From a virus (taxonomy: Duplodnaviria; Heunggongvirae; Uroviricota; Caudoviricetes): a DNA stretch of 15,433 bases. A program made the position numbers and the translations under genes. The stretch is taken from the IMG/VR virus record IMGVR_UViG_3300014970_000025; one strand, given 5' to 3'. Below the pieces are notes generated by a model, which saw only the letters and a program-made list of their open reading frames with translations, made no database searches and was not told the origin of the DNA. This document shows positions 832 through 14,488 of the stretch, piece after piece. Every line of letters starts with the position of its first letter. Within the stretch, counting starts at the first letter, position 1.

Positions 832-1584
832 GTGGATGATATGGCAACTACATGTTCAGTTATATTGATTTTGGAGTCCTTTGATGTTTATTTCGGAAAA
901 GAGAGAGTGTTTCTGGATAGAGGTTTATCTGTACTTGTCGACTCTAGCTATAGAGATTTTTTCCTGACATATCCTGAAAGAGTGATAGTGGCGGATTTTG
1001 GCGCTGAGTTTATTAGTCGCTATTTGAAAGCTAATAACTTAAGGGATATTTCTGATTGTAGGGAATATCCATCTTATTTAAAAATAAACTTTGCTGACTT
1101 CAGTTTAATTAAAGGATTAATTAGTTGGGCTAATCACTGTGCTGAATATATAGAAATTTTTGATGAGTCTATTGCTTTTACATGTCTCTCTGCATTTTCT
1201 TCTGAAAAACAATTTGGAGTATTTCTGTTTGGATGTTTGAAAAGCACAGGGGCTAAAGTTAAAACGATTATTCATACGGATTTATCTGCACCATGGCATC
1301 TTAAGGATATATCATCAAGATTATATCTCAGCGAAAGTTTACTAAAGAGGAAATTGAAAGAAGAGGGGGTATCATTCAGTAAGATCATACTTGATGAGAG
1401 GATGCAAATGGCTGAATATTTACTCAGCACTCGTTGTTATCCTGTTAGTAAAGTAGCTAAGGTCTGTGGTTATGCCAGTGTCTCATACTTTACTTATGTA
1501 TTTAGACGTTATTTTGGTGTTTCTCCAAGTCAATACTCTCAGAGGAGTTCAGAAAGTAAAATTCTTACTCACCAGGGAATCTGA
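832..1584 (+). CDS. AraC-family transcriptional regulator, AppY/EnvY/AdiY-like (250 aa)
   Basis: Intact 250-aa ORF. C-terminal double HTH region (WHLKDISSRLYLSESLLKRKLKEEGVSFSKI...VAKVCGYASVSYFTYVFRRYFGVSPSQY) matches the AraC/XylS signature and resembles, from memory, E. coli AppY ([22 protein letters not shown]...QKCGYNSTSYF). Preceded by a very AT-rich upstream region (600-830), typical of horizontally acquired AraC regulators. Start may be 832 or 841. Confidence 0.85.
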   Translation: MDDMATTCSVILILESFDVYFGKERVFLDRGLSVLVDSSYRDFFLTYPERVIVADFGAEFISRYLKANNLRDISDCREYPSYLKINFADFSLIKGLISWANHCAEYIEIFDESIAFTCLSAFSSEKQFGVFLFGCLKSTGAKVKTIIHTDLSAPWHLKDISSRLYLSESLLKRKLKEEGVSFSKIILDERMQMAEYLLSTRCYPVSKVAKVCGYASVSYFTYVFRRYFGVSPSQYSQRSSESKILTHQGI

Positions 1585-1625
1585 TCATTGTTCTTGCCCC
1601 CTTATTTCCAGACAGGGGGTGTATC

Positions 1626-2062
1626 TTAAGTTAACGTTACCCGCTGACGTCGATATTCTCGCGGAGAGCGATAACCCAACGCACTGTGCGGATGGTTTTC
1701 ATTGTAATGTTCGATCGCCACTGCAAGATTATGCAATGCCGTTCTTACATTCGGTTTCGGCATGAACGCGATGTAGTCTTCCTTCATCGTTTTCACGAAC
1801 CTTTCTGCAATTCCATTACTCTGAGGACTGCTGATTGCCGTTGTGCAGGGCTCCAGATTCAACTCTCTGGCGAACTGCCGTGTTTCATGCGCTCTATACG
1901 CTGAACCGTTATCTGTCAGCCACTGGATGGACTGTTCCGGTACTTTATCGCCAAAGCGTTTTTCTATCGCTCCTAACATGACATCCTGCACTGTCGCTTT
2001 ATCGTAACCTCCCGTGCTTGCGGCCCAGTCTATGGCTTCACGATCGCAACAGTCCAGGGCGA
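1626..2062 (-). pseudogene. IS3-family (IS2-like) transposase OrfB, C-terminal fragment (rve/DDE integrase core remnant)
   Basis: Minus-strand translation ...[51 protein letters not shown]...[14 protein letters not shown] matches the C-terminal end of IS3-family OrfB and resembles IS2 InsD as recalled. The frame is open only to an in-frame stop near 2063; the N-terminal part and OrfA are absent; no inverted repeats identified. Confidence 0.8.
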
Positions 2063-3491: not shown

Positions 3492-3875
3492 ATGGCTAGA
3501 TTGCGAGAGGTGCTTAACGCGATTTTCAGCGCCCCCCGATCTGGAAAATCCAGAATCCCCAAATATCAGCAAGGAATTTTCTTGCGTAATCAACATCGTT
3601 TTTACCTATTAAATCATTACACAGAAAGCCTTTCTGTAATGTCTCTCACTAAACTTTCACTAAACACGAGAATGATCGGTTTTATGTCGGATCAGATGCT
3701 AGAAACAGCACCACGTCTCACAAGGGCTGTAAGCGATGAAACCAGTGTTTATGCGGGTGCAGGTCAAAATATAGGCCAAAATCCATTTAACATAATAAAC
3801 GTAATATGCACTAAGGAACACATAGAACGCCTTGAGTTGATGTATCAGGGGAAAAGTGGTGGATTTTTTACGTAG
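3492..3875 (+). CDS. hypothetical protein (127 aa), doubtful
   Basis: ORF present in track but no Shine-Dalgarno (ATG preceded by CCCCTCCCTT), composition unremarkable, no recognisable domain. May be non-coding. Confidence 0.25.
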   Translation: MARLREVLNAIFSAPRSGKSRIPKYQQGIFLRNQHRFYLLNHYTESLSVMSLTKLSLNTRMIGFMSDQMLETAPRLTRAVSDETSVYAGAGQNIGQNPFNIINVICTKEHIERLELMYQGKSGGFFT

Positions 3876-3894
3876 GAGCACGAGAGGGCTTCTA

Positions 3895-3922
3895 TTGACT
3901 TTTGTATGCTATGAAATATAAT
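3895..3922 (+). promoter_or_regulatory. near-consensus sigma-70 promoter (TTGACT-N16-TATAAT)
   Basis: TTGACT at 3895-3900 and TATAAT at 3917-3922, 16-nt spacer; directs rightward transcription into an ORF-poor region. Confidence 0.5.
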
Positions 3923-4356
3923 AGAAGGTTTTTATTTTTATGTTGATAGTGATTGCACATTAAAGATTGAAAGCAAATTTAAACATAAATTTTCAACACG
4001 TGAAAGAAACTTGTTCGACAAATAATAGATTGATTTTTAATCAACAATTTCTGATAGTGCTCTGTAAGCCGCATTACACAAGGCTTTGCGAAAGTGATGT
4101 AAAAGTGAAGAAAGCTAACATTGCTCTTTTAAGCCACTTTTCATTGAATTTTTAGTATGGAATTACATAGGGATTAATCATCAATTACATTGAATTTAAG
4201 CCTGTTTTAGATAGCAAGAAACACTTTTACTGATTATAAGAAGATCATTGCACAGATGTTATGTGATGGATGTAACGGTAGGTCACTGTGAACTATCCCC
4301 TACAGAATTTTGTTACCTATTAGATCAACTATCAAACTACAATTAAATTATCTTTT

Positions 4357-4576
4357 ATAAATTCTTTTATCTTTAAAGAATAATTATAGGGATACCCGTT
4401 GGATGTAACGATGGGTTACATCGGCAGATGACCGGGGGGGTCGGTCACGATGACCGGGGGGGGTCGGTCACGATGACTGACAATAAGATTACTTTAATAA
4501 TACTAATAATAAAACTAACATCTATAATACTAATAAATTCTTTTATCTTTTAAGAATAATTATAGGGATACCCGTT
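4357..4576. repeat. 44-bp direct repeat pair (43/44 identical) flanking a hairpin and tandem G-tract palindromes
   Basis: DR1 4357-4400 and DR2 4533-4576: ATAAATTCTTTTATCTTT(A/T)AAGAATAATTATAGGGATACCCGTT. Between them: hairpin GATGTAAC-gatgg-GTTACATC (4402-4422); tandem units GATGACCGGGGGGGTCGGTCAC (4427-4448) and GATGACCGGGGGGGGTCGGTCAC (4449-4471), each containing the palindrome TGACCG-N7-CGGTCA; partial third unit 4472-4480. Confidence 0.8.
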
Positions 4577-4581
4577 AGGGG

Positions 4582-4655
4582 AGTCTAACGACTATCCCTT
4601 AATCTATTGGCATTCGCCAGAACCTTGCACAAGTTAGAGTGTTAGTCGTTAGACT
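4582..4655. repeat. 12-bp perfect inverted repeat AGTCTAACGACT / AGTCGTTAGACT separated by 50 bp
   Basis: Arms at 4582-4593 and 4644-4655. The core CTAACG recurs at 4823-4830 (TCTAACGA) and in a bulged hairpin GCGTTACCCC-ttt-GGGGatgcTAACGC at ~4889-4914. Confidence 0.7.
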
Positions 4656-5183
4656 GCTTGTCATAACACATAGTTTTTGTTTGTTGATGTTAGTTAGTAG
4701 ATCTATGTTCGCTAATGCCGCTCACAACGAATATGTAATCTACTATGTGCAAATAGCCTACGGCTTGCGTAAGGCTAAATAGTCTTGCGCTGTGCGCAGA
4801 ACGATAATTAACTAACTACCATCTAACGATCATCAATCATCTAAAATAAATTTCTTGTGCAATGTTCTTGCGAATGCAATTAGGGTAGCGTTACCCCTTT
4901 GGGGATGCTAACGCATAACTATAGATCAACCATCAAACAGACAAAAAAGAAAAATATGGTTTAAAGATGTTAGGTAGTAGATGAGTTTCTACCGCTTAAA
5001 TCAAGCCGTAGGCGAGCAAAACAACCTCTACATAAGGGAATGTATTGTTTTTATCAAAATCTCGTCAGAATGCGTTTTAGAGCGTTTTAGCGGATAATGA
5101 AGAATAGCACCACACAGGAGAGCACGAATTGATAAGAAAAAATGTAAGCGCATGAAAAAGATCAGGTTTTTTATGAAAAGGTA

Positions 5184-5212
5184 TTGACAAATGTTTCTTT
5201 ATATGTAATAAT
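5184..5212 (+). promoter_or_regulatory. sigma-70-like promoter (TTGACA-N17-AATAAT with upstream TG)
   Basis: TTGACA 5184-5189, TGT then AATAAT 5207-5212; sits ~120 bp upstream of the first gene of a + strand gene cluster. Confidence 0.5.
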
Positions 5213-5330
5213 AGGTATTAAAGGGACAGGAAAATATTCTTATCCTCTAAGTAATTAAACCAATGCACCGCACTTTGAAGCCCAAGGCTTGCAAGGTGTC
5301 TATTTCTTTTAACTGAATAAGGAGTTTTTT

Positions 5331-5513
5331 ATGAAATGGTTTACATCGGAACGCGTCGTAGAGGCATTTAAAAAAGGTGAGCTAACACGACATCAAATAG
5401 TAATGAATCGTAATATGGCAAGGAGTCGAGGTTATCCAGAGCGTGAAAAATGCTTTGACGATGCACTAAAAATTATTGATGAACTGCGTAAGGCAGAGGC
5501 AGAGAAAGAATAA
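5331..5513 (+). CDS. small hypothetical protein (60 aa)
   Basis: Strong SD (AAGGAG, 6-nt spacing) before ATG 5331; product MKWFTSERVVEAFKKGELTRHQIVMNRNMARSRGY..., no family recognised. Confidence 0.55.
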   Translation: MKWFTSERVVEAFKKGELTRHQIVMNRNMARSRGYPEREKCFDDALKIIDELRKAEAEKE

Positions 5514-5534
5514 TAACAAGAGAAGGAGAAAACT

Positions 5535-5705
5535 ATGAGCGAAACTACAGAAAAGAAAAGACAACCACGCACTTGCTTTCATATTCCTGATGAAGTATTT
5601 CAGGTGTTATTTAAAGAAGCAAGAAGTAAACGTATCACTGTTACAGATTACATTCTTGATATGTTGAAAAGAGAGGCTGAAACACTCTCAAATAAAAGCA
5701 AGTGA
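5535..5705 (+). CDS. Arc-like ribbon-helix-helix (RHH) DNA-binding protein (56 aa)
   Basis: SD AGGAG before ATG 5535; below ORF-track cutoff. CFHIPDEVFQVLFKEARSKRITVTDYILDMLKRE aligns by eye with P22 Arc (FNLRWPREVLDLVRKVAEENGRSVNSEIYQRVMESF): beta-strand followed by two helices, RHH pattern. Confidence 0.65.
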   Translation: MSETTEKKRQPRTCFHIPDEVFQVLFKEARSKRITVTDYILDMLKREAETLSNKSK

Positions 5706-5759
5706 TTTTTATCACCATAGTAGCGCCGTAGAGCGTGATTACATACAGGAGATTTTTTA

Positions 5760-6386
5760 ATGATTAACCAACCAACTTTTACAAAACACTATGACACGTT
5801 CGATAACATCTCGAAGATTTACTCTGATAAATTGCCTCAAGGAAAAGATTTAGAGCTATTACACATTGTGCTTTATTTTCGATTTCTTAGTTATCAGGAG
5901 AACAATCTTAATTGTTACGAAAGTCACGAGACATTAGCTAAGATTTTTAAGGCTTCGGTATCAACGATTCAACGTAAGATTAAAGATCTTAAGGAGATGG
6001 GGTTATTAGATACATCCCCGCACTCTGATCCTAACATTACATCCCTTGTTTATACTGCTCTCCCTCTCACAGATGCACACATTACACCACCGGAAGACGT
6101 GAAATTCGCTGTAAACGTAGAACGGGCTGCACCTGAATATCAGGAAACATTAGAAGCGACACACTCTATTGAGCAGGAAACACAGGAATCAGCGTTCCCT
6201 GAGCGGCCCGAAATTTTTACTTGGCTTCTTTCCCTTGATAAGAAGAAACCACCACACGAAGAAACAGAAGATTTTGTAAAACGAGCATTAGATTCAAAGA
6301 ATATCTATCTTTGTGAAAATGATTTTGACTCTTTGATAATTGATCTCAAAAGTGAGAGCACAATATATGATTCACTACCCTTCTAA
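5760..6386 (+). CDS. winged-HTH DNA-binding protein, replication-initiator/organizer-like N-terminal domain (208 aa)
   Basis: SD AGGAG before ATG 5760. N-terminal LLHIVLYFRFLSYQENNLNCYESHETLAKIFKASVSTIQRKIKDLKEMGLLD follows the pattern of phage/plasmid Rep-type winged-helix domains; C-terminal half acidic and unassigned. Confidence 0.7.
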   Translation: MINQPTFTKHYDTFDNISKIYSDKLPQGKDLELLHIVLYFRFLSYQENNLNCYESHETLAKIFKASVSTIQRKIKDLKEMGLLDTSPHSDPNITSLVYTALPLTDAHITPPEDVKFAVNVERAAPEYQETLEATHSIEQETQESAFPERPEIFTWLLSLDKKKPPHEETEDFVKRALDSKNIYLCENDFDSLIIDLKSESTIYDSLPF

Positions 6387-6521
6387 GGAGAATAAATGAC
6401 TTATAACATCACAAACAATCAATAACAACAGATCGGGCAATACATATGGCAAATGCATTTATGGCGATATTCATCGTAACAATGGCATTCAGTTTTTATA
6501 ATCCACATAAAAAGAGGGAAA

Positions 6522-6905
6522 ATGGGAAGAAAGAAGAAGAACAACTTAAAACGTATTGAAAAAAACAGTAACTTCAATTCAACAAGACAACGTCCACCGA
6601 CACACACCAATAACGAAATTCCAGGGGAAGAGATAATATTTATTCTTGAAACAGAATCCCCTGAATTAAGCGATGAAGAATTAGAAATAATCCAGTCAAT
6701 GCCAGGCGTTTACTTTCGCCCAAGAACAAGAAAACAAACTATCATTTCTGATGGCACTCTGAAACGTTGGCAGCTTTTAGGGTTTAGCTCCTATCATCAT
6801 TTTTTGGGATTTAACGCTTTCAATAATTGTGTAGGTGGTGCATCGGAAGTCGATCTGATGGCTCATTTAGAAGATACATTAGCTTCTAACAAACGTTCTA
6901 ACTAA
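6522..6905 (+). CDS. hypothetical protein (127 aa), basic N-terminus and acidic middle
   Basis: SD GAGGG before ATG 6522; no family recognised. Confidence 0.5.
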   Translation: MGRKKKNNLKRIEKNSNFNSTRQRPPTHTNNEIPGEEIIFILETESPELSDEELEIIQSMPGVYFRPRTRKQTIISDGTLKRWQLLGFSSYHHFLGFNAFNNCVGGASEVDLMAHLEDTLASNKRSN

Positions 6906-6920
6906 TAAAATGATGGGCGT

Positions 6921-7166
6921 ATGTATAAGCGCCCAATGAAAATATTCAAAAAAGGAAAAATAATGATTGGCTATATTCAAGAAACACAATTATTTCAGAT
7001 GATCCTGTCTGATGCAAAAAACTATGCTGAGTTAATCCGACTGGCAAAAGAAACAGAAGACTACGAAGCATTAGAGCGTTATCGTGATGAAGTGCTGACG
7101 CTCAAGACACCTTTTAACATCGTATTGAATATGATTAATGATGCATTACAAGGAGAAGCCGCATAA
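6921..7166 (+). CDS. small hypothetical helical protein (81 aa; alternative start 6963 gives 67 aa)
   Basis: Internal ATG 6963 has the better SD (AAGGAAAAATAATG). Stop overlaps the next start (TAATG at 7164-7168), suggesting translational coupling. Confidence 0.45.
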   Translation: MYKRPMKIFKKGKIMIGYIQETQLFQMILSDAKNYAELIRLAKETEDYEALERYRDEVLTLKTPFNIVLNMINDALQGEAA

Positions 7167-7474
7167 TGGAAGAAGATATTAGCAATGCAATGGAACAACT
7201 TTTAGATCTGACTATCTCACTACAAACAAGAATAAATCAAGCCTATTCAGATTTATGTGATTACACGCTCTCTCAATGCGTTATTAGCTTAATGAAGGTG
7301 AATGTAAGCCTTGACGATTTTATCTCTCTGGTGAGCGATTTAGAGCTATCAGAGGACGATGCAAAACAGTGTAATCAAATCATCACAGACATCGCCACCA
7401 CGTTAAAGGTTGCAAGTGAAGAGATTCAGCAATTAGTAGATGATTTAGCAAAAAGTGCTATTTTCTCTAAATGA
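7166..7474 (+). CDS. acidic helical hypothetical protein (102 aa)
   Basis: Start overlaps the upstream stop; product rich in D/E/L/I; no family recognised. Confidence 0.55.
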   Translation: MEEDISNAMEQLLDLTISLQTRINQAYSDLCDYTLSQCVISLMKVNVSLDDFISLVSDLELSEDDAKQCNQIITDIATTLKVASEEIQQLVDDLAKSAIFSK

Positions 7475-7487
7475 TAATGAAAATTAT

Positions 7488-7516
7488 TTGCATTTATAAT
7501 GATTTTGTTATATAAT
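7488..7516 (+). promoter_or_regulatory. near-consensus sigma-70 promoter (TTGCAT-N17-TATAAT)
   Basis: TTGCAT 7488-7493, TATAAT 7511-7516, plus a second TATAAT at 7495-7500; followed by ~0.9 kb without any + strand ORF above ~25 codons. Confidence 0.5.
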
Positions 7517-8401
7517 AATTTTAGGGGTAGATAAAAAGATTTTAGTTGGTGTTAATCCTTCTACTGTCATAAATCCCTGCATATGGAAGGTGATAGCCTC
7601 AAAGGTTGAGTGGCATTAACCTCTAACAAATATTACCTTCCATCTCTCAAGAAGTTTTAGAATAATCATAACTCCCTCTTTGATTGTTGATTGTTTCTAC
7701 GTTGTGTTGATGAATGTTGTTAGGCATTGTGCTTAATTTTGATAAAAGCGGGTAGGTGTTATCTCCTTGCCCTTCCCGCTCTTATTTTTCATCTATGCTT
7801 ATCCTAAAGCTCCTTATTTTGTCCGAAAACATTAAAGAGCCTTACACTGATAGTTATATTTTATAACTATTTACTAACATCATTAAACTCTTATTTAATG
7901 ACGGAAGTTAGTAACAGAATAATCTATTAAGTTGTTGTCAAAAAACTATCATCTGCATAGCGTTAGCCGCAAGTAGAGAGAGTTTAGCTAAGAATGGTGC
8001 AATAAACTTTGGAAATATTGATAGCAAAACGGGTTTTATAGAATGCGGATCTATAAGCTTTGGTTGTAAAAACGATTTTCTGAAACGGTAGATTACTGTT
8101 GGTGTAGTTAATCCTATTAAAATTTGATCTGTGAGTAGATTAGAATTGGAATAGTGATTCCTTAAAGCCTTACTTTGTTGCATCCACAGCAAAAACAGGC
8201 AGCGGTTTAGCCCCCGCATCGAATAGCAGGATCGTAGATTCCAAAGGGTTGGCCCCTCCTAAGAGCCAATTTCTCCTGCGGTCCTGTTATTCACCCTTAA
8301 CATATCTCTAAGCGTATTTATAAAAGTATTCTTAGAGATAACGTTAAACCTCCTCAAAGTTGACTTATCACAATATGTATTTTGCCCGATACAAAATAAA
8401 T

Positions 8402-8452
8402 AAGCCCCTTGCTATTGTTGATTGAACCTCTTATAGCCTGGGGCTTTTTATT
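8402..8452 (+). terminator. stem-loop followed by T-run (possible intrinsic terminator or RNA 3' structure)
   Basis: AAGCCCC (8402-8408) pairs with GGGGCTT (8440-8446), followed by TTTTATT; loop is long (31 nt) so classification is tentative. Confidence 0.3.
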
Positions 8453-8480
8453 ACTCGGAACATAACGGAATCGTTATTTT

Positions 8481-8690
8481 ATGAAACAAGAAATTATCCT
8501 GAAATATGGCAATGAAAAGTTAACACTAACTGAGGATGTGTTGAATGCTACAGCCTACGCGCTTGGCATCACTCCTACAGAATTAAAGAAACAGTGTGAA
8601 CGTCTTTATAAGGCTGACAGCAATAAACCATCTCACCAAGATTTGATTAATGCTAAAGCTCAACAAATCAAACAATCTAAGGAAAAATAA
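8481..8690 (+). CDS. small hypothetical protein (69 aa), possible HTH-like segment
   Basis: Stop overlaps the start of the next gene (TAATG at 8688-8692). Segment ATAYALGITPTELKKQ is HTH-like. No family assigned. Confidence 0.5.
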   Translation: MKQEIILKYGNEKLTLTEDVLNATAYALGITPTELKKQCERLYKADSNKPSHQDLINAKAQQIKQSKEK

Positions 8691-9064
8691 TGGCTATTTT
8701 AAAATTAAGCGATGTTTTCCCACATCGTAAAAGCATCACTGACGTAGTGAGCTATGCAACCGACCCTTACGCGGCTGTAGAAAGCAAAAAATTTGCAGCA
8801 CTTGCACAAGATGTAACGTGCGGCGACCTCATTGATTCATCCGGCGCTAAATATGTTAGCGGCGCTGATGTTCTTGTCGTTGTGTCTGACTTCGTAACTG
8901 CTGATTCAAATAAAACAGTTAACGTGCTTCGTGCTAATGCCGGACTCGTTTGCATCAAAGCTGATGCCCTGAATGCCGAAGGCGCTGTAAAAGAAGCTGC
9001 TATTGCAGCTCTCGCTGCTAAAGGCTTCCAGCTTGAAGGCTTCCACTCTGTTTTCACATCTTAA
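8690..9064 (+). CDS. putative head decoration protein (lambda gpD/SHP-like position and size, 124 aa)
   Basis: SD AAGGA; lies immediately upstream of an E-like major capsid gene, as D does in lambdoid head modules; size typical; Ala/Val/Gly-rich. Assignment rests mainly on synteny and composition. Confidence 0.45.
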   Translation: MAILKLSDVFPHRKSITDVVSYATDPYAAVESKKFAALAQDVTCGDLIDSSGAKYVSGADVLVVVSDFVTADSNKTVNVLRANAGLVCIKADALNAEGAVKEAAIAALAAKGFQLEGFHSVFTS

Positions 9065-9080
9065 GAAGGAATAAATAATA

Positions 9081-10109
9081 ATGATTATCGGAAATGAAGT
9101 GGTTGATCTTGCTCCACTGTTTGAATTAAACGATACCCGTAACTATCTGCTGTCTACTCTGGATTTTACTGATCCTGTGCCTGTAGAAAGTCACAAAGTG
9201 GCTGTTTCCCAGCTTATCGAGAGCAATGAATCTCTGTTCAACCATCCTACAAGCCGTTTTAGCTCTGAGCATAACGTTACTAAACGTGAAAACGCGGAAG
9301 AGTGGCTGATTGAAATTCCTTATTTCCTGCGTGAAGACCTGATCACACCGCAGGACGTGCAAGGCAAACGAAAAGCCGGAAGCTCTATTGAAGAAACACT
9401 GCCGGATCTGTATGCGGAATATATCGCTAAACACAATGTTGCATTCCAGCGCACTAAAGAAAGCATCCTCGCGGCTTCTCTGTTCTCTGGCAAGACGCAT
9501 ACCCCGAAAACTGACGATGTTCTGATCGACTACAGCACTCTGTTCGGTGTGTCTCCAATGACTGCAACCGTTGACGCATCCAGCACCAACACAATGACTG
9601 TGTTCAAACAGTTTGACCAGATGCATACGGATATGATTGCTAAAGCACAAAGCCAGGCTGCAACCATTGAGCGTGTTGTTGTGTTCTGTAAGCCTGCGGC
9701 ATTCAACGCTATTCGTTACAGCGTTGGCATGGTTAATGCGTTCCAATATGCAAGCCCTGTAGACGATGCAAACGTGGTGTTTAATGTGCGCTCTCTGCTG
9801 CCTGGTGTAACTACTTTCACCATTCCAGGAACTAACATTGATCTGATCAAAGTGACTGATCCGCTGCTGCTGGCACATATGACCGCAGACGCTGTAGCTG
9901 TTCCTAAATTCGCTAAAGGTGCAGGTGTTTACCAATCTATTTATGGCGCTCCTTCCAGTTCCTTCGATCTGCTGTCTCAAGGCGCTAAAGAGTATTACAG
10001 CTATGCTTTCGAATCGAATCGCGGCGACGCAGTGCACGTAGTGACCGAGAATAGCTCGCTTGTGGTTAACCACGGTGTTGGCTTCTCTGTGCAGATCACA
10101 GTAGCGTAA
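9081..10109 (+). CDS. phage major capsid protein, lambda gpE-like family (342 aa)
   Basis: SD AAGGAA; length nearly identical to lambda gpE (341 aa); C-terminus ...VVNHGVGFSVQITVA resembles gpE ...DPDEFVSVQLA and internal ERVVVFCKPAAFNAIRYS resembles gpE NIIVFDPKGWALFRSF (by recall). Confidence 0.8.
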   Translation: MIIGNEVVDLAPLFELNDTRNYLLSTLDFTDPVPVESHKVAVSQLIESNESLFNHPTSRFSSEHNVTKRENAEEWLIEIPYFLREDLITPQDVQGKRKAGSSIEETLPDLYAEYIAKHNVAFQRTKESILAASLFSGKTHTPKTDDVLIDYSTLFGVSPMTATVDASSTNTMTVFKQFDQMHTDMIAKAQSQAATIERVVVFCKPAAFNAIRYSVGMVNAFQYASPVDDANVVFNVRSLLPGVTTFTIPGTNIDLIKVTDPLLLAHMTADAVAVPKFAKGAGVYQSIYGAPSSSFDLLSQGAKEYYSYAFESNRGDAVHVVTENSSLVVNHGVGFSVQITVA

Positions 10110-10273
10110 AAAGTGTTAAAGACGTTCCCCTACGTCTGGAAATAATCGGGGGGCAATAAGGGTAAGGAGATTAACTAACCTGTAGGCGCAAATACAGTAA
10201 CGAATCTCTTTGCCCTTTTTGTTTTTCTACTGTCTACAAATCCAAATAAAAATATATATGTGAGAGAAAACCA

Positions 10274-10471
10274 ATGAACACAGAAAATTCACAGGCATTA
10301 ATTCTTAAATCTGTAAAAGAACTGGCAGCTATTAGCGATGACTCAATAATCAATGTCAGTGCCTTATGCAGAATGCTTTCAATTGATGCAAATAATGTGC
10401 GGCAGCGTGTGTTTCAGACCGGGTGCAGCACTTTCGAAGCAATCCAATATTATTGTTCTAAAAAACAATAA
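10274..10471 (+). CDS. small hypothetical protein (65 aa)
   Basis: Weak SD; segment VSALCRMLSIDANNVRQR is HTH-like; uncertain. Confidence 0.35.
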   Translation: MNTENSQALILKSVKELAAISDDSIINVSALCRMLSIDANNVRQRVFQTGCSTFEAIQYYCSKKQ

Positions 10472-10505
10472 CAAACAACAATCATAATACAGGGAAACAA
10501 TCAGT

Positions 10506-12347
10506 ATGTTAGAACTAAACGTGGCACGCCTCTCGAACGTTGTCACCTTCGAAGTTAACCGACCATCATTAGAGAAAGCAAAAGCAGAAGTAGAAAAACT
10601 TCGTAAACAAATGGCGGCGGTGAAAGATATAGAATTGCGTGTTAAGACACATAAACAATCAACCGCTAAAGCAAAAAAAGACGTAGACGATATTGCTAAA
10701 AAGCAAGCACAGGCAGATAAAGCCAATGCTAAAGCACAATTAGCCGCTCAACGTGTAGTTGCAAGAGAACAAAAAGCCCTGGCAGCACGGAAAGAGAAGG
10801 CTGAATTAAAGCTTTTAGACGTTGGAGCAAGCATTAGCGCATTGCACCGTCTTTCTGTAGCGGAACAATATAAAGCTATTGCACAGGCTAGAGAAATTGC
10901 CCTCCAATATGAAAGAGGCGCTATTAGTCTGGCACGTATGAATAGCCAAATGAAACGCCTACAACAGCAACAACGTAAGATTAATGGCAATCGTAACGCT
11001 CACGCTAAAGCCTATGCACCTGTTAAGGGTAGCGGGAGTATTGGCGGCGGTGCTGCGGCTGTTATGCTGGGTGGCTTAGGCGCTGGCGCTGCATATATGG
11101 CTATGAGCAAAGCTTCTGAATTTGTTACTAACAGCTTTGCGAATGCTGAAACGCTGGGAGAATTGTATAGCCGTGCGAAGCTGGGCGGTGTAGACGTTAA
11201 CCAGATGAACAATATTGAGCAATGGGCGTATAAAAACGGCGTTGATTCAATGATGGGGGATCAAGGTAAACGTAAGTATCTCGATCAGATGAAAGATGTG
11301 CGTGAGCGTGCAACCAAAAGCTATGATGAGGCTGAATATGTAGTCGATAAAAAAACAGGCAAAGGTGAATGGAAGGGCGGCGATAGCGGCATCAACGTTC
11401 TCATGAACGAAGGATTCTTAACTAAGAAAGATTTGAAAGACTTTGCTGATAATCCTGCTGGCCTGGTTAGTAAAGCAGTTCAGGGAATGGTAGCTAAAGG
11501 CTATTCAGATGCACAAATCGGTAGTCGTCTTGAAGACTTGGGCGATGATTTGATGCTCACCTCTAAATACTGGACACGCTCCGCTAAAGAAGTGGAACAA
11601 TCAGCACGAGAACAACGAGAATCAGGGCGCTGGGTAACACAGGCACAACAGGAAAGCGTTATTAAATTCCGTGAACTGAATAATGCACTTAGTGGGCTTT
11701 CTGACTCACAAGGGATCGCCTTTGTTGATGGCTTTATGAAATCTCTTGATCCGAAAGTGATTGAAGAGTTTAAAAAGAGCATGGTTGCAATGCTGCCAAT
11801 GTTTACCAAATTAGGCGAGGCTATCGGCGGATTGGTTAACGCTGTAATGAAAGCAATCAACTGGCTGATGAAAAACGACGAGAAGACGGCAGCTATTCAG
11901 AAGAATTTAGGTGATGCACCGCCACTATCTAACGAAGGAATGAAGCAGAATCTTTCTAATCTCACTCCTGATCAATATAAAGGCGCTGGCACCGGAACAA
12001 CTAAGCCAGATAACAGCAATTCCCTGGTTAACACTATTAAAAGCTGGTTTATGCCAGAAGAAACGGTAGGTGGGGCGCAGGCTGTAAATCAATACAGTCT
12101 CGAAGGACAAAACATTGCAAATCTGAAACAGAGTGCAGCACAACAAGCTTTCAAGGCTCCTTCTTACACCTTTGCACCTGTTATTAACTTCAATCCAGAA
12201 TTACAAGTAAATGCAGAAGTGCCGCTAACTATCGAATCAGACACCGGACGATTGAGCGAATTTATCGACTTCAAATCAAAGGCATCCTCCGCTGAGTTTA
12301 GCAAGCTATTAACGCTGGGTGTTATGTCAGGCGGGTCAACCTATTAA
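10506..12347 (+). CDS. tape-measure-like protein: long Lys/Ala/Gln coiled-coil N-terminus, Gly-rich hydrophobic segment, large C-terminal region (613 aa)
   Basis: Residues ~20-170 are heptad-like charged helix (EKAKAEVEKLRKQ...KAQLAAQRVVAREQKALAARKEKAELK), followed by GSGSIGGGAAAVMLGGLGAGAAYMAMS (membrane-like). This architecture is typical of phage tail tape-measure or ejection proteins. No enzymatic motif seen. Confidence 0.5.
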   Translation: MLELNVARLSNVVTFEVNRPSLEKAKAEVEKLRKQMAAVKDIELRVKTHKQSTAKAKKDVDDIAKKQAQADKANAKAQLAAQRVVAREQKALAARKEKAELKLLDVGASISALHRLSVAEQYKAIAQAREIALQYERGAISLARMNSQMKRLQQQQRKINGNRNAHAKAYAPVKGSGSIGGGAAAVMLGGLGAGAAYMAMSKASEFVTNSFANAETLGELYSRAKLGGVDVNQMNNIEQWAYKNGVDSMMGDQGKRKYLDQMKDVRERATKSYDEAEYVVDKKTGKGEWKGGDSGINVLMNEGFLTKKDLKDFADNPAGLVSKAVQGMVAKGYSDAQIGSRLEDLGDDLMLTSKYWTRSAKEVEQSAREQRESGRWVTQAQQESVIKFRELNNALSGLSDSQGIAFVDGFMKSLDPKVIEEFKKSMVAMLPMFTKLGEAIGGLVNAVMKAINWLMKNDEKTAAIQKNLGDAPPLSNEGMKQNLSNLTPDQYKGAGTGTTKPDNSNSLVNTIKSWFMPEETVGGAQAVNQYSLEGQNIANLKQSAAQQAFKAPSYTFAPVINFNPELQVNAEVPLTIESDTGRLSEFIDFKSKASSAEFSKLLTLGVMSGGSTY

Positions 12348-12357
12348 TCATCACTGT

Positions 12358-12373
12358 GGGGCTGTTTAGCCCC
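12358..12373 (+). terminator. GC-rich hairpin GGGGCT-gttt-AGCCCC with weak U-tract
   Basis: Perfect 6-bp stem, 4-nt loop, 10 nt after the stop of the 613-aa gene; followed by CTTAAAT rather than a strong T-run. Confidence 0.35.
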
Positions 12374-12394
12374 CTTAAATAAGGATTACAAATT

Positions 12395-13072
12395 ATGGCA
12401 ATGGGTCCGTTAACCATTGGTCGCCCGACTGAGGCGAAAATCAACAGCACAAGCAACGATAGCAACGGTAGAACAACCAAAGGGGGTAACGGCTTTGCGA
12501 TCATTGCCTCTAACCTCGGCAGTGGTGCAAATGCTGCTTACAATGACTACCAGGCATTATCATTTGATAGCGTGGAATCGACGAAAGTTAGCAGAAATGC
12601 GGACGTTACAAGCTATGCCGTCGAATCAGGATCAGAAGTTAGTGATCATGTTCAAATACGGAATAACAAGTTCACATTACAAGGGCGTATCTCTGAAACC
12701 GTATTGAAGCTCAATCCCGATATGATTAAGAATGCGGGAATTAACGGCAATAGACGTATGCTTATGCTTGAATACCTAAATCAGTTGATGGACAGTCGCC
12801 AACCTTTCCTACTTGTCACTGAGTTAAAAAATTATGACAACGTTGTGTTAGTTGGCATGTCTTACGAAGAAGAAGCAAGCGAAAGTATATTGTTTACTCT
12901 TGATTTTGAGCAAATTCGTCTTGTCTCTAAGGCCACCACTAATGCTATTGCTGTAAAAACAGCACCAAATAAATCTGTAGGGGGACAGGTTAAAATGCAG
13001 GTAAATACAACAGAACAGAAAAATCAAAAAAGCCCAGGGCAAGACGTTGTAACACCAGTATTTAAACAATAG
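12395..13072 (+). CDS. hypothetical protein (225 aa), Ser/Thr/Asn-rich N-terminus; possible virion-associated protein
   Basis: SD AAGGA 9 nt upstream; follows the tape-measure-like gene; no family recognised. Confidence 0.6.
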   Translation: MAMGPLTIGRPTEAKINSTSNDSNGRTTKGGNGFAIIASNLGSGANAAYNDYQALSFDSVESTKVSRNADVTSYAVESGSEVSDHVQIRNNKFTLQGRISETVLKLNPDMIKNAGINGNRRMLMLEYLNQLMDSRQPFLLVTELKNYDNVVLVGMSYEEEASESILFTLDFEQIRLVSKATTNAIAVKTAPNKSVGGQVKMQVNTTEQKNQKSPGQDVVTPVFKQ

Positions 13073-13153
13073 CCTTAAACGCCTATGAAACGCTCTGTAA
13101 CGATGTAATTATAAAAGAGGCTACCAATCTATGTTGAAGCCTCCTTATTACGT

Positions 13154-14488
13154 CTATGGCGTTGTTTTACGCCTTAAATTTGATTTTTTATTGATTGATA
13201 AGCCTTTCTCTATTTCAGGGTAGCGTAAAAGCTCAATATATTTTTTAAGCTCTACTGGAGAAGCTGCATTTTTGCTATATGTGCGGAATGTTTCTGTATT
13301 GCCGCGTGTATGGCCCAGGAGAAGGGCGATCCTGTCTTCTGGAATTTGATTTCGATCAAGAAGCTGTGCTACTCCGTGTCTCAGAGAATGAAACACTTTC
13401 CTTTCTGTTCCCTTTTCCCCTAAAGCCTTTCGTTTAGCTCTTGTAAATCGTTGTGTATGCCACGTAGAGCGTTTACCGTCAGCACGTTCTGTAATGCTGG
13501 CGTGATAGAACAAAAAGCCATTGTGAGGCTTTTCACGCAGCGACAACACCAACGGAGTGATAAGGCTATGTACAGGCACAACACGTGCCGCTGCTTTCGT
13601 CTTTCCCTGTGTGATTTCAAAACACAGCACACCTTCGATCTCTTTCACATCGTCTATTGTGAGACTTGCTATCTCATTGATCCGCATACCTGTATATAAA
13701 CCGATAAGACACAAAGCCGTCATTTCTTTGTTTTCTGCTGAATTACCGGAAAATACTTGCAACACCTGCAATAGCTCTTTGTTAGAAAATGCCTCGTAGC
13801 TCTCTCTACTTTGTGCCACATCAAGCCTATGCCCTCGCCAGGGGGAGAGCGCCCTTTCTGGCGCATCGTGGTAACGTGATGAAGCTAACTCCCATAGCTG
13901 GGCCATTGGGCTGATATAATTTGCAATTGATTGTTGTGAAAGAGTTTTTTGCATGTGTTCAATCCAGCCTGTAACAGTGGTGCGGCTTACGTCTTGCAAT
14001 GCAATATCAGGCTTTTTACGGTAGGAGAGAAACATCTCTACCGCTTTTCTTGCCTTAGCTAAAGTGGCTGGCTTCTTCTTCGTGCTGTTAATTGTCAGGT
14101 AGATTTCAAGAATTTTAAGCAATGACGGACACGAAGACGCTGTATCTTGCATTCTGGTAGCTGTTTTGGCGTATTTAGCCTTACTGCGTAACAGTTCCAG
14201 CGTGTTTTCTATTGTGCTGTTTACAGGGGCAACACTCTCCCGTAAGCAATGGTATTCATCTGCAATCTGATCACGCTTTCTACGTGCAACACGAAGATTA
14301 CTTGTGTGCAGACTTCTGACAAACGTCCTTTTTCCTTCAAAAAAGGGCTGCATATACACAGGCAGCGTGATCCTTAAATAGTAGTTACCGTAAGAATCAC
14401 AGATTAAGTATTGGTTAGGCTTGTATCTCATAAAATCTCCGGCTAAAGTGTCGGAGCGTTTGTAATGTGAAAATTGATTGTGACGCAT
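13154..14488 (-). CDS. tyrosine site-specific recombinase (phage/P4-type integrase, 444 aa; alternative start at 14431)
   Basis: Catalytic-domain motifs TGMRINE (Arg), HSLRHGVAQ (His-x-x-Arg), LLGHTRGNTETFRTYSK (His, Tyr nucleophile); N-terminal YLRITLP...FFEGKRTFVRSL typical of tRNA-site integrases; lies adjacent to a tRNA-Thr-derived repeat. Confidence 0.9.
   Translation of the reverse strand: MRHNQFSHYKRSDTLAGDFMRYKPNQYLICDSYGNYYLRITLPVYMQPFFEGKRTFVRSLHTSNLRVARRKRDQIADEYHCLRESVAPVNSTIENTLELLRSKAKYAKTATRMQDTASSCPSLLKILEIYLTINSTKKKPATLAKARKAVEMFLSYRKKPDIALQDVSRTTVTGWIEHMQKTLSQQSIANYISPMAQLWELASSRYHDAPERALSPWRGHRLDVAQSRESYEAFSNKELLQVLQVFSGNSAENKEMTALCLIGLYTGMRINEIASLTIDDVKEIEGVLCFEITQGKTKAAARVVPVHSLITPLVLSLREKPHNGFLFYHASITERADGKRSTWHTQRFTRAKRKALGEKGTERKVFHSLRHGVAQLLDRNQIPEDRIALLLGHTRGNTETFRTYSKNAASPVELKKYIELLRYPEIEKGLSINKKSNLRRKTTP

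What the first reader, a model, noticed from the sequence alone, without database searches (positions are those of the whole stretch)
3895..5184. Strong promoter reading into 1.25 kb of ORF-free, motif-dense DNA: candidate structured ncRNA, origin or packaging region
A TTGACT-N16-TATAAT promoter (3895-3922) faces a region with no + strand ORF carrying a Shine-Dalgarno. Downstream are recurring short motifs: AGGGATA in both orientations at ~4170, 4295, 4388, 4564 and 4593; GGATGTAACG at 4267 and 4401; the palindrome TTGATT-ttt-AATCAA at ~4033; plus the direct repeats and hairpins reported separately. Such density of ordered repeats is not expected from decayed coding sequence. It suggests a processed RNA (for example P4-type RNA immunity) or a protein-binding origin or pac/cos region.
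Basis: seen in the sequence. Interest (0 to 1): 0.7.

Follow-up and report, generated by a model that had tools for sequence, protein, structure and literature searches.

The report
Replication origin of a phage satellite
The gene-free, repeat-dense stretch is most likely the replication origin of a small phage-satellite-like island of E. coli: repeats matched to the island's own initiator protein, an easily melted AT-rich tract and a hairpin-rich flank, which is a known kind of element rather than a new RNA.

Summary
Window 3895-5330 has no credible ORF, a near-consensus promoter at 3895-3922, and motifs commoner than chance. The region occurs in 733 of 5426 complete E. coli genomes, inside a ~12 kb integrase-bearing, satellite-like island.

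The promoter-to-ncRNA reading is not supported. The promoter sits in a swappable 420-bp module, about half of the loci lack it, no Rfam family matches, and covariation is negligible.

The "origin" alternative is supported. Every homologous locus has 2-5 tandem 22-24 bp units, each with a dyad, abutting a conserved ACAATAAGA junction and an ~85 bp AT-rich tract (13% GC). At least eight repeat types exist. In all 45 loci read, each type travels with one N-terminal winged-helix allele of the island's O-like protein (window 5760-6386). The ~1.3 kb between them recombines freely. The rule predicted the repeats in five further loci.

In the window the cognate dyads are GGTCACGATGACC at 4443-4455 and 4466-4478.

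The ~350 nt after the AT tract are unusually hairpin-rich in three unrelated sequence versions. Their role is unresolved. Verdict: new member of a known kind.

The parts
3895..3922 (+). Promoter P1 (TTGACT-16-TATAAT). It lies inside the exchangeable module 3568-3987.
   Evidence: 11 of 12 matches. The module is present in 334 of 5426 E. coli genomes at 95-99% identity. It is absent or replaced by a Ser or Tyr recombinase gene in other loci. A role in transcriptional activation of the origin is inference only.
4003..4267 (.). Block A: conserved noncoding DNA without predicted structure. It carries ATTRCACA motifs. Function unassigned.
   Evidence: Conserved at 74-94% in nearly all loci, and partly (3987-4174) in type II loci. 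Folding z-scores run from about -0.6 to +1.7. TGTGYAAT is enriched. A 1-nt indel in L001 rules out coding.
4268..4317 (.). Patch of single units of other iteron types: c-type half (GGATGTAACG, 4268-4277), d-type unit (GGTAGGTCACTGTGAACTA, 4277-4295) and b-type unit (CCCCTACAGAATTTTGTTACC, 4297-4317).
   Evidence: These sequences match the tandem units of loci L004 (c), L006 (d) and L001 (b). The d-type dyad at 4281-4293 resembles the window's own a-type dyad in 10 of 13 positions.
4318..4400 (.). First AT-rich copy (13% GC), including the first copy of the 44-nt repeat (4357-4400).
   Evidence: family D1, 98% identical to 4533-4576. (GC 0.133 at 4330-4389).
4401..4423 (.). Single c-type unit (dyad GTAACGATGGGTTAC at 4405-4419).
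   Evidence: The same unit forms 5-unit arrays in c-type loci such as L004.
4427..4478 (.). Cognate (a-type) iterons: two 23-bp tandem units, GATGACCGGGGGGG(G)TCGGTCAC. The dyads GGTCACGATGACC / GGTCACGATGACT lie at 4443-4455 and 4466-4478.
   Evidence: 68% GC. The same units appear in 1-3 copies in L085 and L086, whose initiator shares the window's N-terminal domain but has a different C-terminal domain.
4479..4563 (.). Conserved junction ACAATAAGA (4480-4488) and AT-rich tract. Candidate DNA-unwinding element.
   Evidence: GC 0.13-0.20. The junction motif follows the last iteron in most loci (ACAATACTA in e/f-type loci, TATAAGAAT in L083), and in L082, whose initiator is only 36% identical.
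4564..4599 (.). 36-nt palindrome/hairpin (AGGGATA...TATCCCT) directly after the AT tract.
   Evidence: -17.8 kcal/mol, z -2.8. L037 carries changes that make the palindrome perfect.
4600..4925 (.). Hairpin-rich module (blocks C and D) closed by the 30-nt inverted repeat 4604-4633 / 4854-4883. Function unresolved: single-strand priming or loading sites, a pac site, or an RNA.
   Evidence: z -6.3 (+) and -7.3 (-) as RNA, -7.3 as DNA. Control windows give -2.6 to +1.5. The matching segments of unrelated sequence in L051 and L082 give z -5.5 and -4.2. Cassette mosaicism is seen. 86-98% identical across E. coli.
4992..5183 (.). Block F upstream part: control region of the early operon, with the direct repeat GCGTTTTAG x2 (5072-5080, 5082-5090).
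   Evidence: Read from the sequence. A 10-nt indel removes one copy in some loci. ~75-90% identity.
5184..5212 (+). Promoter P2 (TTGACA-17-AATAAT with TG) of the operon that encodes the initiator.
   Evidence: TTGACA is invariant, while the spacer has at least 5 alleles.
5270..5311 (+). Leader hairpin plus U-tract (intrinsic-terminator-like) between P2 and the first ORF (ATG at 5331).
   Evidence: 13-bp stem, z -2.5. Conserved in 12 leader variants, with a paired deletion on both sides of the stem.
5760..6386 (+). O-like winged-helix protein (208 aa). Proposed initiator that reads the iterons.
   Evidence: Pfam HTH_36. PHROG replication-initiator, O-like and DnaD-like families only, for all five N-terminal alleles tested. 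N-terminal allele and iteron type are associated.

Best explanation
The core of the region (about 4268-4600) is an iteron-type replication origin of the island. The steps below are marked as shown (read from sequences) or inferred.

1. Shown: 2-5 tandem 22-24 bp units, each with a dyad, sit directly against a conserved ACAATAAGA junction, an ~85-bp AT-rich tract and a palindrome.
2. Shown: the repeat type co-varies one-to-one with the N-terminal winged-helix allele of the O-like protein encoded 1.3 kb downstream.
3. Inferred: dimers of that protein bind the dyads (window 4443-4455 and 4466-4478, perhaps also 4281-4293) and melt the AT tract, as lambda O does at ori-lambda.
4. Inferred: the conserved C-terminal half, which ends in an SSB-tail-like ...D-x-(I/L)-P-F tip, recruits host or helper replisome components.
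5. Inferred, weakly: the adjoining hairpin-rich 350 nt act once single-stranded, as priming or loading signals.
6. Inferred: where it is present, promoter P1 reads through the origin and may activate it transcriptionally, as pR does for lambda.

For: (1) Tandem dyad repeats lie next to the AT tract in all 52 loci scanned, shown in sequence.

(2) Among the 39 loci with a readable protein, the association is exclusive:
- b-type with MINEEQ, 16 of 16
- c-type with MSKIKL, 6 of 6
- e-type with MIKNIK, 5 of 5
- f-type with MNQNTK, 8 of 8
- a- and d-types with two MINQPT subtypes that differ in the recognition helix
The e and f dyads differ by a single base (CCTAGG against CCCAGG).

(3) The DNA between the repeats and the gene assorts freely. 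Within b-type loci alone there are 5 P2 alleles, 7 ORF1 variants, D and D', with and without E, and units A, AB and B. The RHH alleles each pair with two iteron types, so simple physical linkage does not explain the coupling.

(4) Prospective tests were passed:
- L051, with a different middle and a different C-terminal domain, has d-type x2.
- L085 and L086, with the window's N-terminal domain and a different C-terminal domain, have a-type x1-3.
- L087, with a variant helix, has the new dyad GGTCATGGTGACC x2.
- L082, with a 36%-identical protein, has 4-5 copies of AGTGGACATTTTGTCCGG, then ACAATAAGA and an AT tract.
- L083 has 2 copies of ATGTAACCTTTTTACTCA followed by an AT tract.

(5) All N-terminal alleles hit only PHROG replication-initiator, O-like and DnaD-like families (E down to 2.6e-9) and never repressor families.

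(6) GC is 13% in the AT tracts against 68% in the iterons.

(7) The window's dyad occurs nowhere near P2.

(8) Precedents exist. Lambda ori is iterons plus an AT tract, two iterons plus the AT tract suffice for unwinding, and the origin needs transcriptional activation (PMC7466680). The PLE satellite carries its ori in a large noncoding region, with semi-palindromic iterons and cognate RepA/ori modules (PMC7145576, PMC8263062).

(9) Xer-like Tyr or Ser recombinase genes flank the region in many loci. This fits a plasmid-like replicon with a multimer-resolution function.
Against: - Nothing here is experimental.
- Tandem dyads at a ~23-bp period also describe repressor operators (lambda OL/OR), and repressor-operator pairs co-vary too.
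- The predicted fold is a generic winged helix. Foldseek ranks MarR-type regulators and RepA_N initiators equally, and no hit reaches E <= 0.001 (the model's mean pLDDT is only 59.5).
- The island encodes no helicase, primase or loader.
- The window has only two cognate units.
- L018-type loci carry an extra a-type cassette without the a-type protein.
- There are no DnaA boxes, which is neutral for a lambda-type origin.
- Block A and the hairpin-rich module are not explained by iteron binding.
- A strong promoter plus strong folding is also what an RNA gene would show.
Confidence: 0.62

Rival explanations
1. Operator array. The winged-helix protein is the island's repressor or regulator, and the tandem dyads are its operators. 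They would control a local promoter, for example the - strand TAGACT-17-TATAAT at 4587-4559 or the weak + strand sites at 4473-4504. The co-variation would then reflect immunity specificity.
For: Dyad sites at a ~23-bp period and protein/site co-variation fit lambdoid operators equally well. RefSeq names the protein a transcriptional regulator. MarR-type regulators top the fold search. No obvious repressor gene is seen elsewhere in the island.
Against: No promoter overlapping the repeats is conserved across repeat types. The sites lie 700-1000 bp from the only conserved promoter, P2, and none lies near it. An AT-rich tract with a conserved junction always follows the last unit. PHROG matches are to replication initiators only. 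The two-domain build with an acidic linker and an SSB-tail-like tip is unusual for a repressor.
Confidence: 0.15
2. Structured noncoding RNA. P1, or an unrecognised promoter, produces a long leader that is processed into a regulatory RNA (P4 CI / P1 c4 style). Alternatively, 4560-4925 is a new ~350-nt structured RNA.
For: Strong promoter P1. Very strong folding at 4560-4925 (z -6.3 and -7.3). The matching segments of L051 and L082 are also structured. Sense and antisense boxes (GATGTTAG... / ...CTAACATC) occur on one strand. The P2 leader ends in a terminator, so the operon needs antitermination. One U-A to U-G change in the long helix favours the + strand.
Against: P1 is absent from about half of the loci, and no inward promoter replaces it. 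No terminator lies inside the region. No Rfam family matches, with the best E-value 0.11. The covariation term is -1.6 kcal/mol, and the few double changes reflect allele swaps. The two strands fold equally well, and the DNA fold is as significant as the RNA fold. The 12-nt complementarity 4756-4767 / 5002-5013 does not co-vary. Block A, directly after P1, is unstructured.
Confidence: 0.1
3. Packaging signal. The conserved hairpin-rich module 4600-4925, or block A, is the pac/cos site through which a helper phage's terminase packages the island. The island encodes no terminase of its own.
For: The island has capsid, tape-measure-like and Dit-like genes but no terminase or portal, so a cis packaging site must exist somewhere. 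Block C is 86-98% conserved regardless of initiator type, as expected for a site read by a shared outside factor.
Against: No similarity to any of 50,697 phage records, even at E <= 10, whereas satellite cos/pac sites usually copy the helper's. Type II loci replace the module with unrelated sequence. The second noncoding region, 7474-8481, next to the capsid genes, is an equally good candidate.
Confidence: 0.08
4. Recombination substrate. The inverted and direct repeats are res, inversion or cassette-exchange sites for the small Ser or Tyr recombinases encoded next to the region in many loci.
For: A divergent recombinase gene abuts the region in L047, L051, L074-L077, L079, L082, L083 and L085-L087. 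Mosaic cassettes are bounded by short repeats such as ATCTAACGAT and CTTAAAT..GGCGAGCTAAAC. GTCTAAC...GTTAGAC resembles integron core sites (own knowledge).
Against: The window has no such gene. No segment is found inverted among 46 loci. The cassette boundaries are long enough for ordinary homologous recombination. A res site would explain ~100-150 bp at most.
Confidence: 0.04
5. Decayed coding sequence or chance.
For: None beyond short ORFs.
Against: The gene-free state is kept in all loci, including ones unrelated in sequence and 1.4-2.3 kb long. The repeats are ordered and the folding z-scores are extreme.
Confidence: 0.01

Closest known systems
ori-lambda and the O initiator of lambdoid phages
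   Same: Tandem iterons with internal dyads. An adjacent AT-rich tract followed by a palindrome. Two iterons next to the AT tract are enough for unwinding. The N-terminal domain of the initiator sets iteron specificity and varies between relatives, while the C-terminal part is shared. Transcription through or near the origin activates it (PMC7466680, plus own knowledge of lambdoid O/ori types). PHROG 'O-like' families match the protein.
   Different: Here the origin lies in noncoding DNA ~1.3 kb upstream of the initiator gene, not inside it. There is no P-like helicase loader. The match to O-like families is weak and confined to the winged helix. The C-terminal tips resemble the SSB tail.
Noncoding-region origin and RepA (RepA_N family) of the Vibrio cholerae satellite PLE
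   Same: A phage satellite with a kilobase-scale gene-free region that carries the ori. Semi-palindromic iterons. An initiator with a DNA-binding N-terminal domain resembling the DnaD N-terminal domain and a variable C-terminal domain, and no helicase or primase. RepA variants work only with their cognate origins, as exchangeable modules (PMC7145576, PMC8263062, PMC7567579).
   Different: No detectable sequence relationship: Pfam HTH_36, not RepA_N. The fold search puts RepA_N structures (4pql, 4pt7) only level with MarR regulators. At least eight specificity types against two in PLE. A different host and presumably a different helper.
IncQ (RSF1010) oriV: iterons, AT-rich tract, then ssiA/ssiB hairpins (own knowledge)
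   Same: The same order of parts: iterons, AT-rich tract, then a large inverted repeat whose two strands form hairpins used as single-strand initiation signals.
   Different: The RSF1010 hairpins are read by the plasmid's own primase, RepB'. This island encodes no primase. The role of the hairpins here is untested.
P4 immunity (CI RNA with seqA/seqB/seqC) and the P1/P7 c4 RNA
   Same: A satellite with a promoter-proximal untranslated leader ahead of its early operon, repeated complementary boxes, and a terminator before the first gene.
   Different: No C4/CI-like RNA is detected. The boxes do not co-vary. The upstream promoter is not conserved. The repeats that do co-vary do so with a protein, not with an RNA target.

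Membership tests
Iteron-type theta origin (lambda ori / plasmid / PLE type) | Two or more direct repeats of ~17-30 bp at a helical-repeat spacing | tested here: met
   Units of 22-24 bp in 2-5 tandem copies in all 52 loci scanned, plus L082, L083 and L085-L087. The window has two units at 4427-4478.
Iteron-type theta origin (lambda ori / plasmid / PLE type) | AT-rich unwinding tract directly beside the repeats | tested here: met
   GC 0.13-0.20 at 4479-4563. A conserved or closely similar junction and an AT tract follow the last unit in every locus shown.
Iteron-type theta origin (lambda ori / plasmid / PLE type) | Cognate initiator encoded by the same element, with specificity matched to the repeats | tested here: met
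   One-to-one association of repeat type with N-terminal allele in 45 loci, despite free recombination between them. This is co-variation, not binding.
Iteron-type theta origin (lambda ori / plasmid / PLE type) | Initiator belongs to a recognised replication-initiator family | tested here: inconclusive
   Only initiator, O-like and DnaD-like PHROGs match, with E from 1e-5 to 2.6e-9 over the winged helix. Pfam gives only HTH_36. PDB sequence search gives nothing. The fold search is ambiguous.
Iteron-type theta origin (lambda ori / plasmid / PLE type) | The protein binds the repeats and the fragment supports replication | not testable with these tools
   Needs EMSA or footprinting and origin-plasmid assays.
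P4 CI / P1 c4-type RNA immunity | A CI/c4-like RNA (Rfam family C4) in the leader | tested here: not met
   No Rfam hit at gathering score. At E <= 10 there are only Yfr8 (E 0.11) and RsaOG (E 7.1), both far below threshold.
P4 CI / P1 c4-type RNA immunity | Constitutive promoter reading through the leader, conserved with it | tested here: not met
   P1 lies in an exchangeable module. It is absent from most fetched loci, and no inward promoter is found in L051 or L074.
P4 CI / P1 c4-type RNA immunity | Complementary boxes that co-vary between the RNA and its target sites | tested here: not met
   Box pairs exist, but alleles change one partner without the other.
Any described RNA family (Rfam 15) | Covariance-model match at gathering score | tested here: not met
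   0 matches in the whole window.
Satellite cos/pac site copied from a helper phage | Sequence shared with a phage genome | tested here: not met
   No match at E <= 1e-5, and only chance-level non-coliphage hits at E <= 10, in 50,697 phage records. The helper may simply be unsequenced.
Invertible DNA switch / shufflon | The segment between inverted repeats is found in both orientations among isolates | tested here: not met
   No inverted segment among 46 loci. The only minus-strand matches are the repeat arm itself.

The most novel reading that the evidence does not exclude
The origin works without DnaA or any dedicated helicase loader. The initiator's SSB-tail-like tip (...YDSLPF, ...DDFDIPF) recruits clients of the SSB tail such as PriA, DnaG or the chi subunit. 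The hairpin-rich 350 nt next to the melted AT tract are the primosome-assembly or priming sites. The eight or more interchangeable iteron/winged-helix modules result from an arms race, or from incompatibility between co-resident satellites, as with the phage nuclease Odn against PLE origins. An alternative novel reading is that 4560-4925 is a new large structured RNA that shares the locus with the origin.
Probability: 0.2. Interest if true: 0.7.

Novelty: new member of a known kind. Interest (0 to 1): 0.45.

Why it matters
The result turns an unannotated 1.4 kb gap, present in about one E. coli genome in eight, into a testable replicon. It gives defined binding sites, a named initiator and a set of natural specificity swaps. 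It also flags an apparently uncharacterised E. coli satellite-like island family: integrase, gpE-like capsid, tape-measure-like and Dit-like genes, but no terminase. That family's replication module evolves like the PLE and lambdoid modules. If the SSB-tail mimicry and the hairpin module prove functional, they would show a loader-free way of starting replication. The main benefit for annotation is to stop calling this region a candidate ncRNA.

Tried and rejected
- Rfam at gathering and permissive thresholds: nothing. No tRNA or tmRNA.
- BLAST against phages: nothing. The one plasmid hit was the whole island inserted in an IncF plasmid, not a leading-region single-strand promoter as I first suspected.
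- Invertible switch: no inversions among 46 loci.
- Small conserved peptide in block A: broken by a 1-nt indel in L001.
- T7-like promoter (TATAGGGA): the specificity region does not match and the island has no RNA polymerase gene. Dropped as chance.
- Integron attC reading of GTCTAAC...GTTAGAC: no integron integrase, and the motif is better explained as part of c-type dyads and palindromes.
- DnaA boxes: none in the region.
- RNAalifold on 24 sequences: covariation term -1.6 kcal/mol, so uninformative. The sequences are too similar and the alleles swap as blocks.
- The genome-contig scan with the initiator returned only 2 loci.
- A search with the C-terminal 62 aa returned only 3 proteins.
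- AlphaFold model of the initiator: mean pLDDT 59.5. Foldseek against PDB: no hit at E <= 0.001, with MarR regulators and RepA_N initiators interleaved, so it cannot separate initiator from regulator.
- Literature searches found no description of this island family.
Full report
CONTEXT. The window carries a ~12 kb integrative island. A P4-type tyrosine integrase lies at 13154-14488 (-), next to LysR'/paoD, the site that islands inserted at thrW occupy in E. coli. The island also encodes a lambda gpE-family capsid protein (9081-10109), a tape-measure-like protein (10506-12347), a Dit-like protein (12395-13072) and a 208-aa winged-helix protein (5760-6386). It has no terminase, portal, helicase or primase, so it looks like a phage satellite. 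DNA similar to 3800-5400 occurs in 733 of 5426 complete E. coli genomes. It occurs in no phage record. It occurs once on a plasmid, as a whole-island insertion. Metagenome locus L029 is identical to the window.

THE OBSERVATION. The promoter TTGACT-16-TATAAT at 3895-3922 is real, with 11 of 12 matches. The stretch up to the first gene (ATG at 5331) has no credible ORF, and homologues carry frame-breaking indels. Some quoted motif positions are only near-matches, and AGGGATA alone is weakly significant. GGATGTAACG, TAACG and TGTGYAAT are clearly enriched. The region also contains a 23-bp tandem repeat, a 44-nt duplication and a 30-nt long-range inverted repeat.

ANATOMY FROM COMPARISON. I fetched 88 loci and read the region in those that are homologous. 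The region is a mosaic:
- Module 3568-3987, which carries P1. It is present in 334 genomes. Elsewhere it is replaced by a small serine recombinase or a Xer-like tyrosine recombinase gene transcribed away from the region.
- Block A (4003-4315). It is conserved almost everywhere but has no predicted structure.
- A variable cassette (4315-4533).
- Block C (4533-4830). It is 86-98% identical across E. coli.
- Block D (4830-5022), with two or three alleles.
- An optional ~145-175-nt cassette.
- Block F (4992-5330), with a second promoter, P2.
A second sequence type of the middle part, unrelated in sequence but still gene-free, exists in L051, L057, L060, L064 and L072. Distant relatives also keep a 1.4-1.9 kb gene-free gap in the same place.

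THE KEY RESULT. In every locus the variable cassette ends in 2-5 tandem units of 22-24 bp, each with an internal dyad. They sit 0-10 bp from a junction motif (ACAATAAGA or a close variant) and an AT-rich tract. I found at least eight unit types:
- a: GGTCACGATGACC (the window)
- d: GGTCACTGTGAGC
- d': GGTCATGGTGACC
- b: ACAGAAnnnTGTTA
- c: GTAACGAnnnGTTAC
- e: CCTAGGAAATGAGTTCC
- f: CCCAGGAAATGAGTTCC
- plus the types of L082 and L083
The unit type matches the N-terminal allele of the winged-helix protein without exception in the 39 loci where both could be read. The C-terminal half of the protein is shared, or swapped independently. Everything between the repeats and the gene assorts freely, including block C/D alleles, the optional cassettes, the P2 spacer and ORF1. 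The RHH alleles each go with two repeat types. Physical linkage therefore does not explain the coupling.

PROSPECTIVE TESTS. I then used the rule to make predictions.
- A protein with the window's N-terminal domain but another C-terminal domain (P0093) should have a-type units, and it does, in 1-3 copies.
- A protein with a variant recognition helix (P0095) has a variant dyad.
- L051, with a different middle region and a different C-terminal domain, has d-type units and the MINQLT N-terminus.
- A 36%-identical relative (P0138, locus L082) has 4-5 new 22-bp dyad units, then ACAATAAGA and an AT tract.
- P0143 (locus L083) has two new units and an AT tract.

INTERPRETATION. All five N-terminal alleles tested match only PHROG families annotated as replication initiation, O-like or DnaD-like. 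The tract after the repeats is 13-20% GC, against 68% in the repeats. This is the architecture of ori-lambda: iterons, an AT tract and a palindrome, where two iterons plus the AT tract suffice for unwinding and pR transcription activates the origin (PMC7466680). It is also the architecture of the PLE satellite, whose large noncoding region carries semi-palindromic iterons that work only with the cognate RepA variant (PMC7145576, PMC8263062). I therefore read 4268-4600 as the island's replication origin. The cognate dyads lie at 4443-4455 and 4466-4478. GGATGTAACG, and the units at 4277-4295 and 4297-4317, are single units of other iteron types left by recombination between origin cassettes. 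Two of the three exact AGGGATA copies come from the 44-nt duplication, and the third is the second arm of the palindrome at 4564-4599.

WHAT IS NOT EXPLAINED. The ~350 nt after the AT tract fold far better than shuffled sequence on both strands. As RNA, z is -6.3 and -7.3. As DNA, z is -7.3. Control windows give -2.6 to +1.5. The matching segments of two unrelated sequence versions are structured too, with z -5.5 in L051 and -4.2 in L082. A property kept without sequence conservation suggests a function in single-stranded form. With the evidence in hand I cannot tell ssDNA priming or loading signals (as ssiA/ssiB beside the RSF1010 iterons, own knowledge) from an RNA or a packaging site. Covariation is uninformative. 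Block A is also unassigned.

AGAINST THE ncRNA HEADLINE. P1 is optional. P1-less loci have no inward promoter, and they hold fewer promoter-like sites than shuffles do. No terminator lies inside the region. No Rfam family matches. The complementary boxes do not co-vary.

MAIN RIVAL. The main rival is that the dyads are operators of a repressor. It cannot be excluded, because the fold is a generic winged helix and the fold search is ambiguous. Against it stand the AT tract, the distance from P2, the absence of dyads at P2 and the initiator-only family matches.

VERDICT. The region is a new member of a known kind, an iteron origin with modular initiator specificity in a phage satellite. Confidence in the origin reading is about 0.6. 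The role of the hairpin module is open.

Noticed in passing
window 5184-5330: Promoter P2 (TTGACA-17-AATAAT with TG) is followed about 50 nt later by a conserved 13-bp hairpin plus U-tract (5270-5311), just before the ribosome-binding site of the first ORF. The early operon therefore seems to need antitermination, like lambda pR'/6S RNA or P4. A paired deletion on both sides of the stem in some alleles supports the hairpin.
   Followed up: partly
window 5760-6386, and proteins P0093-P0143: The initiator family has at least 6 N-terminal alleles and at least 4 unrelated C-terminal domains. Yet nearly all members end in an acidic ...(I/L)PF tip (YDSLPF, DDFDIPF, DDFEIPF, FEIPF) resembling the E. 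coli SSB C-terminal tail DFDDDIPF (own knowledge). The tip is disordered in the AlphaFold model.
   Followed up: partly
window 7474-8481: A second ~1 kb gene-poor region lies ahead of the capsid module. The segment 8064-8429 folds with z -5.6, the only other strongly structured 366-nt window in the sequence. It is a candidate pac site or RNA, and has no Rfam match.
   Followed up: no
window 5331-14488: The island encodes a gpE-like capsid protein, a tape-measure-like protein and a Dit-like protein, but no terminase, portal, protease, helicase or primase. This gene set fits none of the satellite families I know (P4-like, PICI, cf-PICI, PLE, PICMI). Three literature searches found no description. 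The initiator family has only 37 representatives among 1.8 billion clustered proteins.
   Followed up: partly
L047, L051, L074-L077, L079, L082, L083, L085-L087 (left edge of the noncoding region); window 3568-3987: Many loci carry a small serine recombinase (179-183 aa) or a catalytic-domain-only Xer-like tyrosine recombinase (187-192 aa), transcribed away from the origin region. The window has the P1 module in the same place. This may be a multimer-resolution function of the replicon.
   Followed up: partly
L018, L036, L042, L043, L076, L077: These loci carry two origin cassettes in tandem: a-type iterons with AT tract and palindrome, then f-type iterons with AT tract. They encode only the f-type initiator, so the a-type iterons are orphans.
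   Followed up: no
window 5072-5090: The direct repeat GCGTTTTAG x2 lies upstream of P2, and one copy is removed by a 10-nt deletion in several loci. It may be an operator for the RHH or the 60-aa protein.
   Followed up: no
window 5331-5513: The first ORF (60 aa) has a weak, sub-threshold match to NCBIfam NF058537, 'RNA-binding regulator' (E 0.005). This is of interest given the terminator in the leader.
   Followed up: no
window 832-1991: Left of the island lie an AraC-type regulator ORF (832-1584) and an IS3-family transposase fragment (1626-1991, - strand). The left flank therefore differs from the tRNA-Thr flank seen in E. coli locus L001.
   Followed up: no
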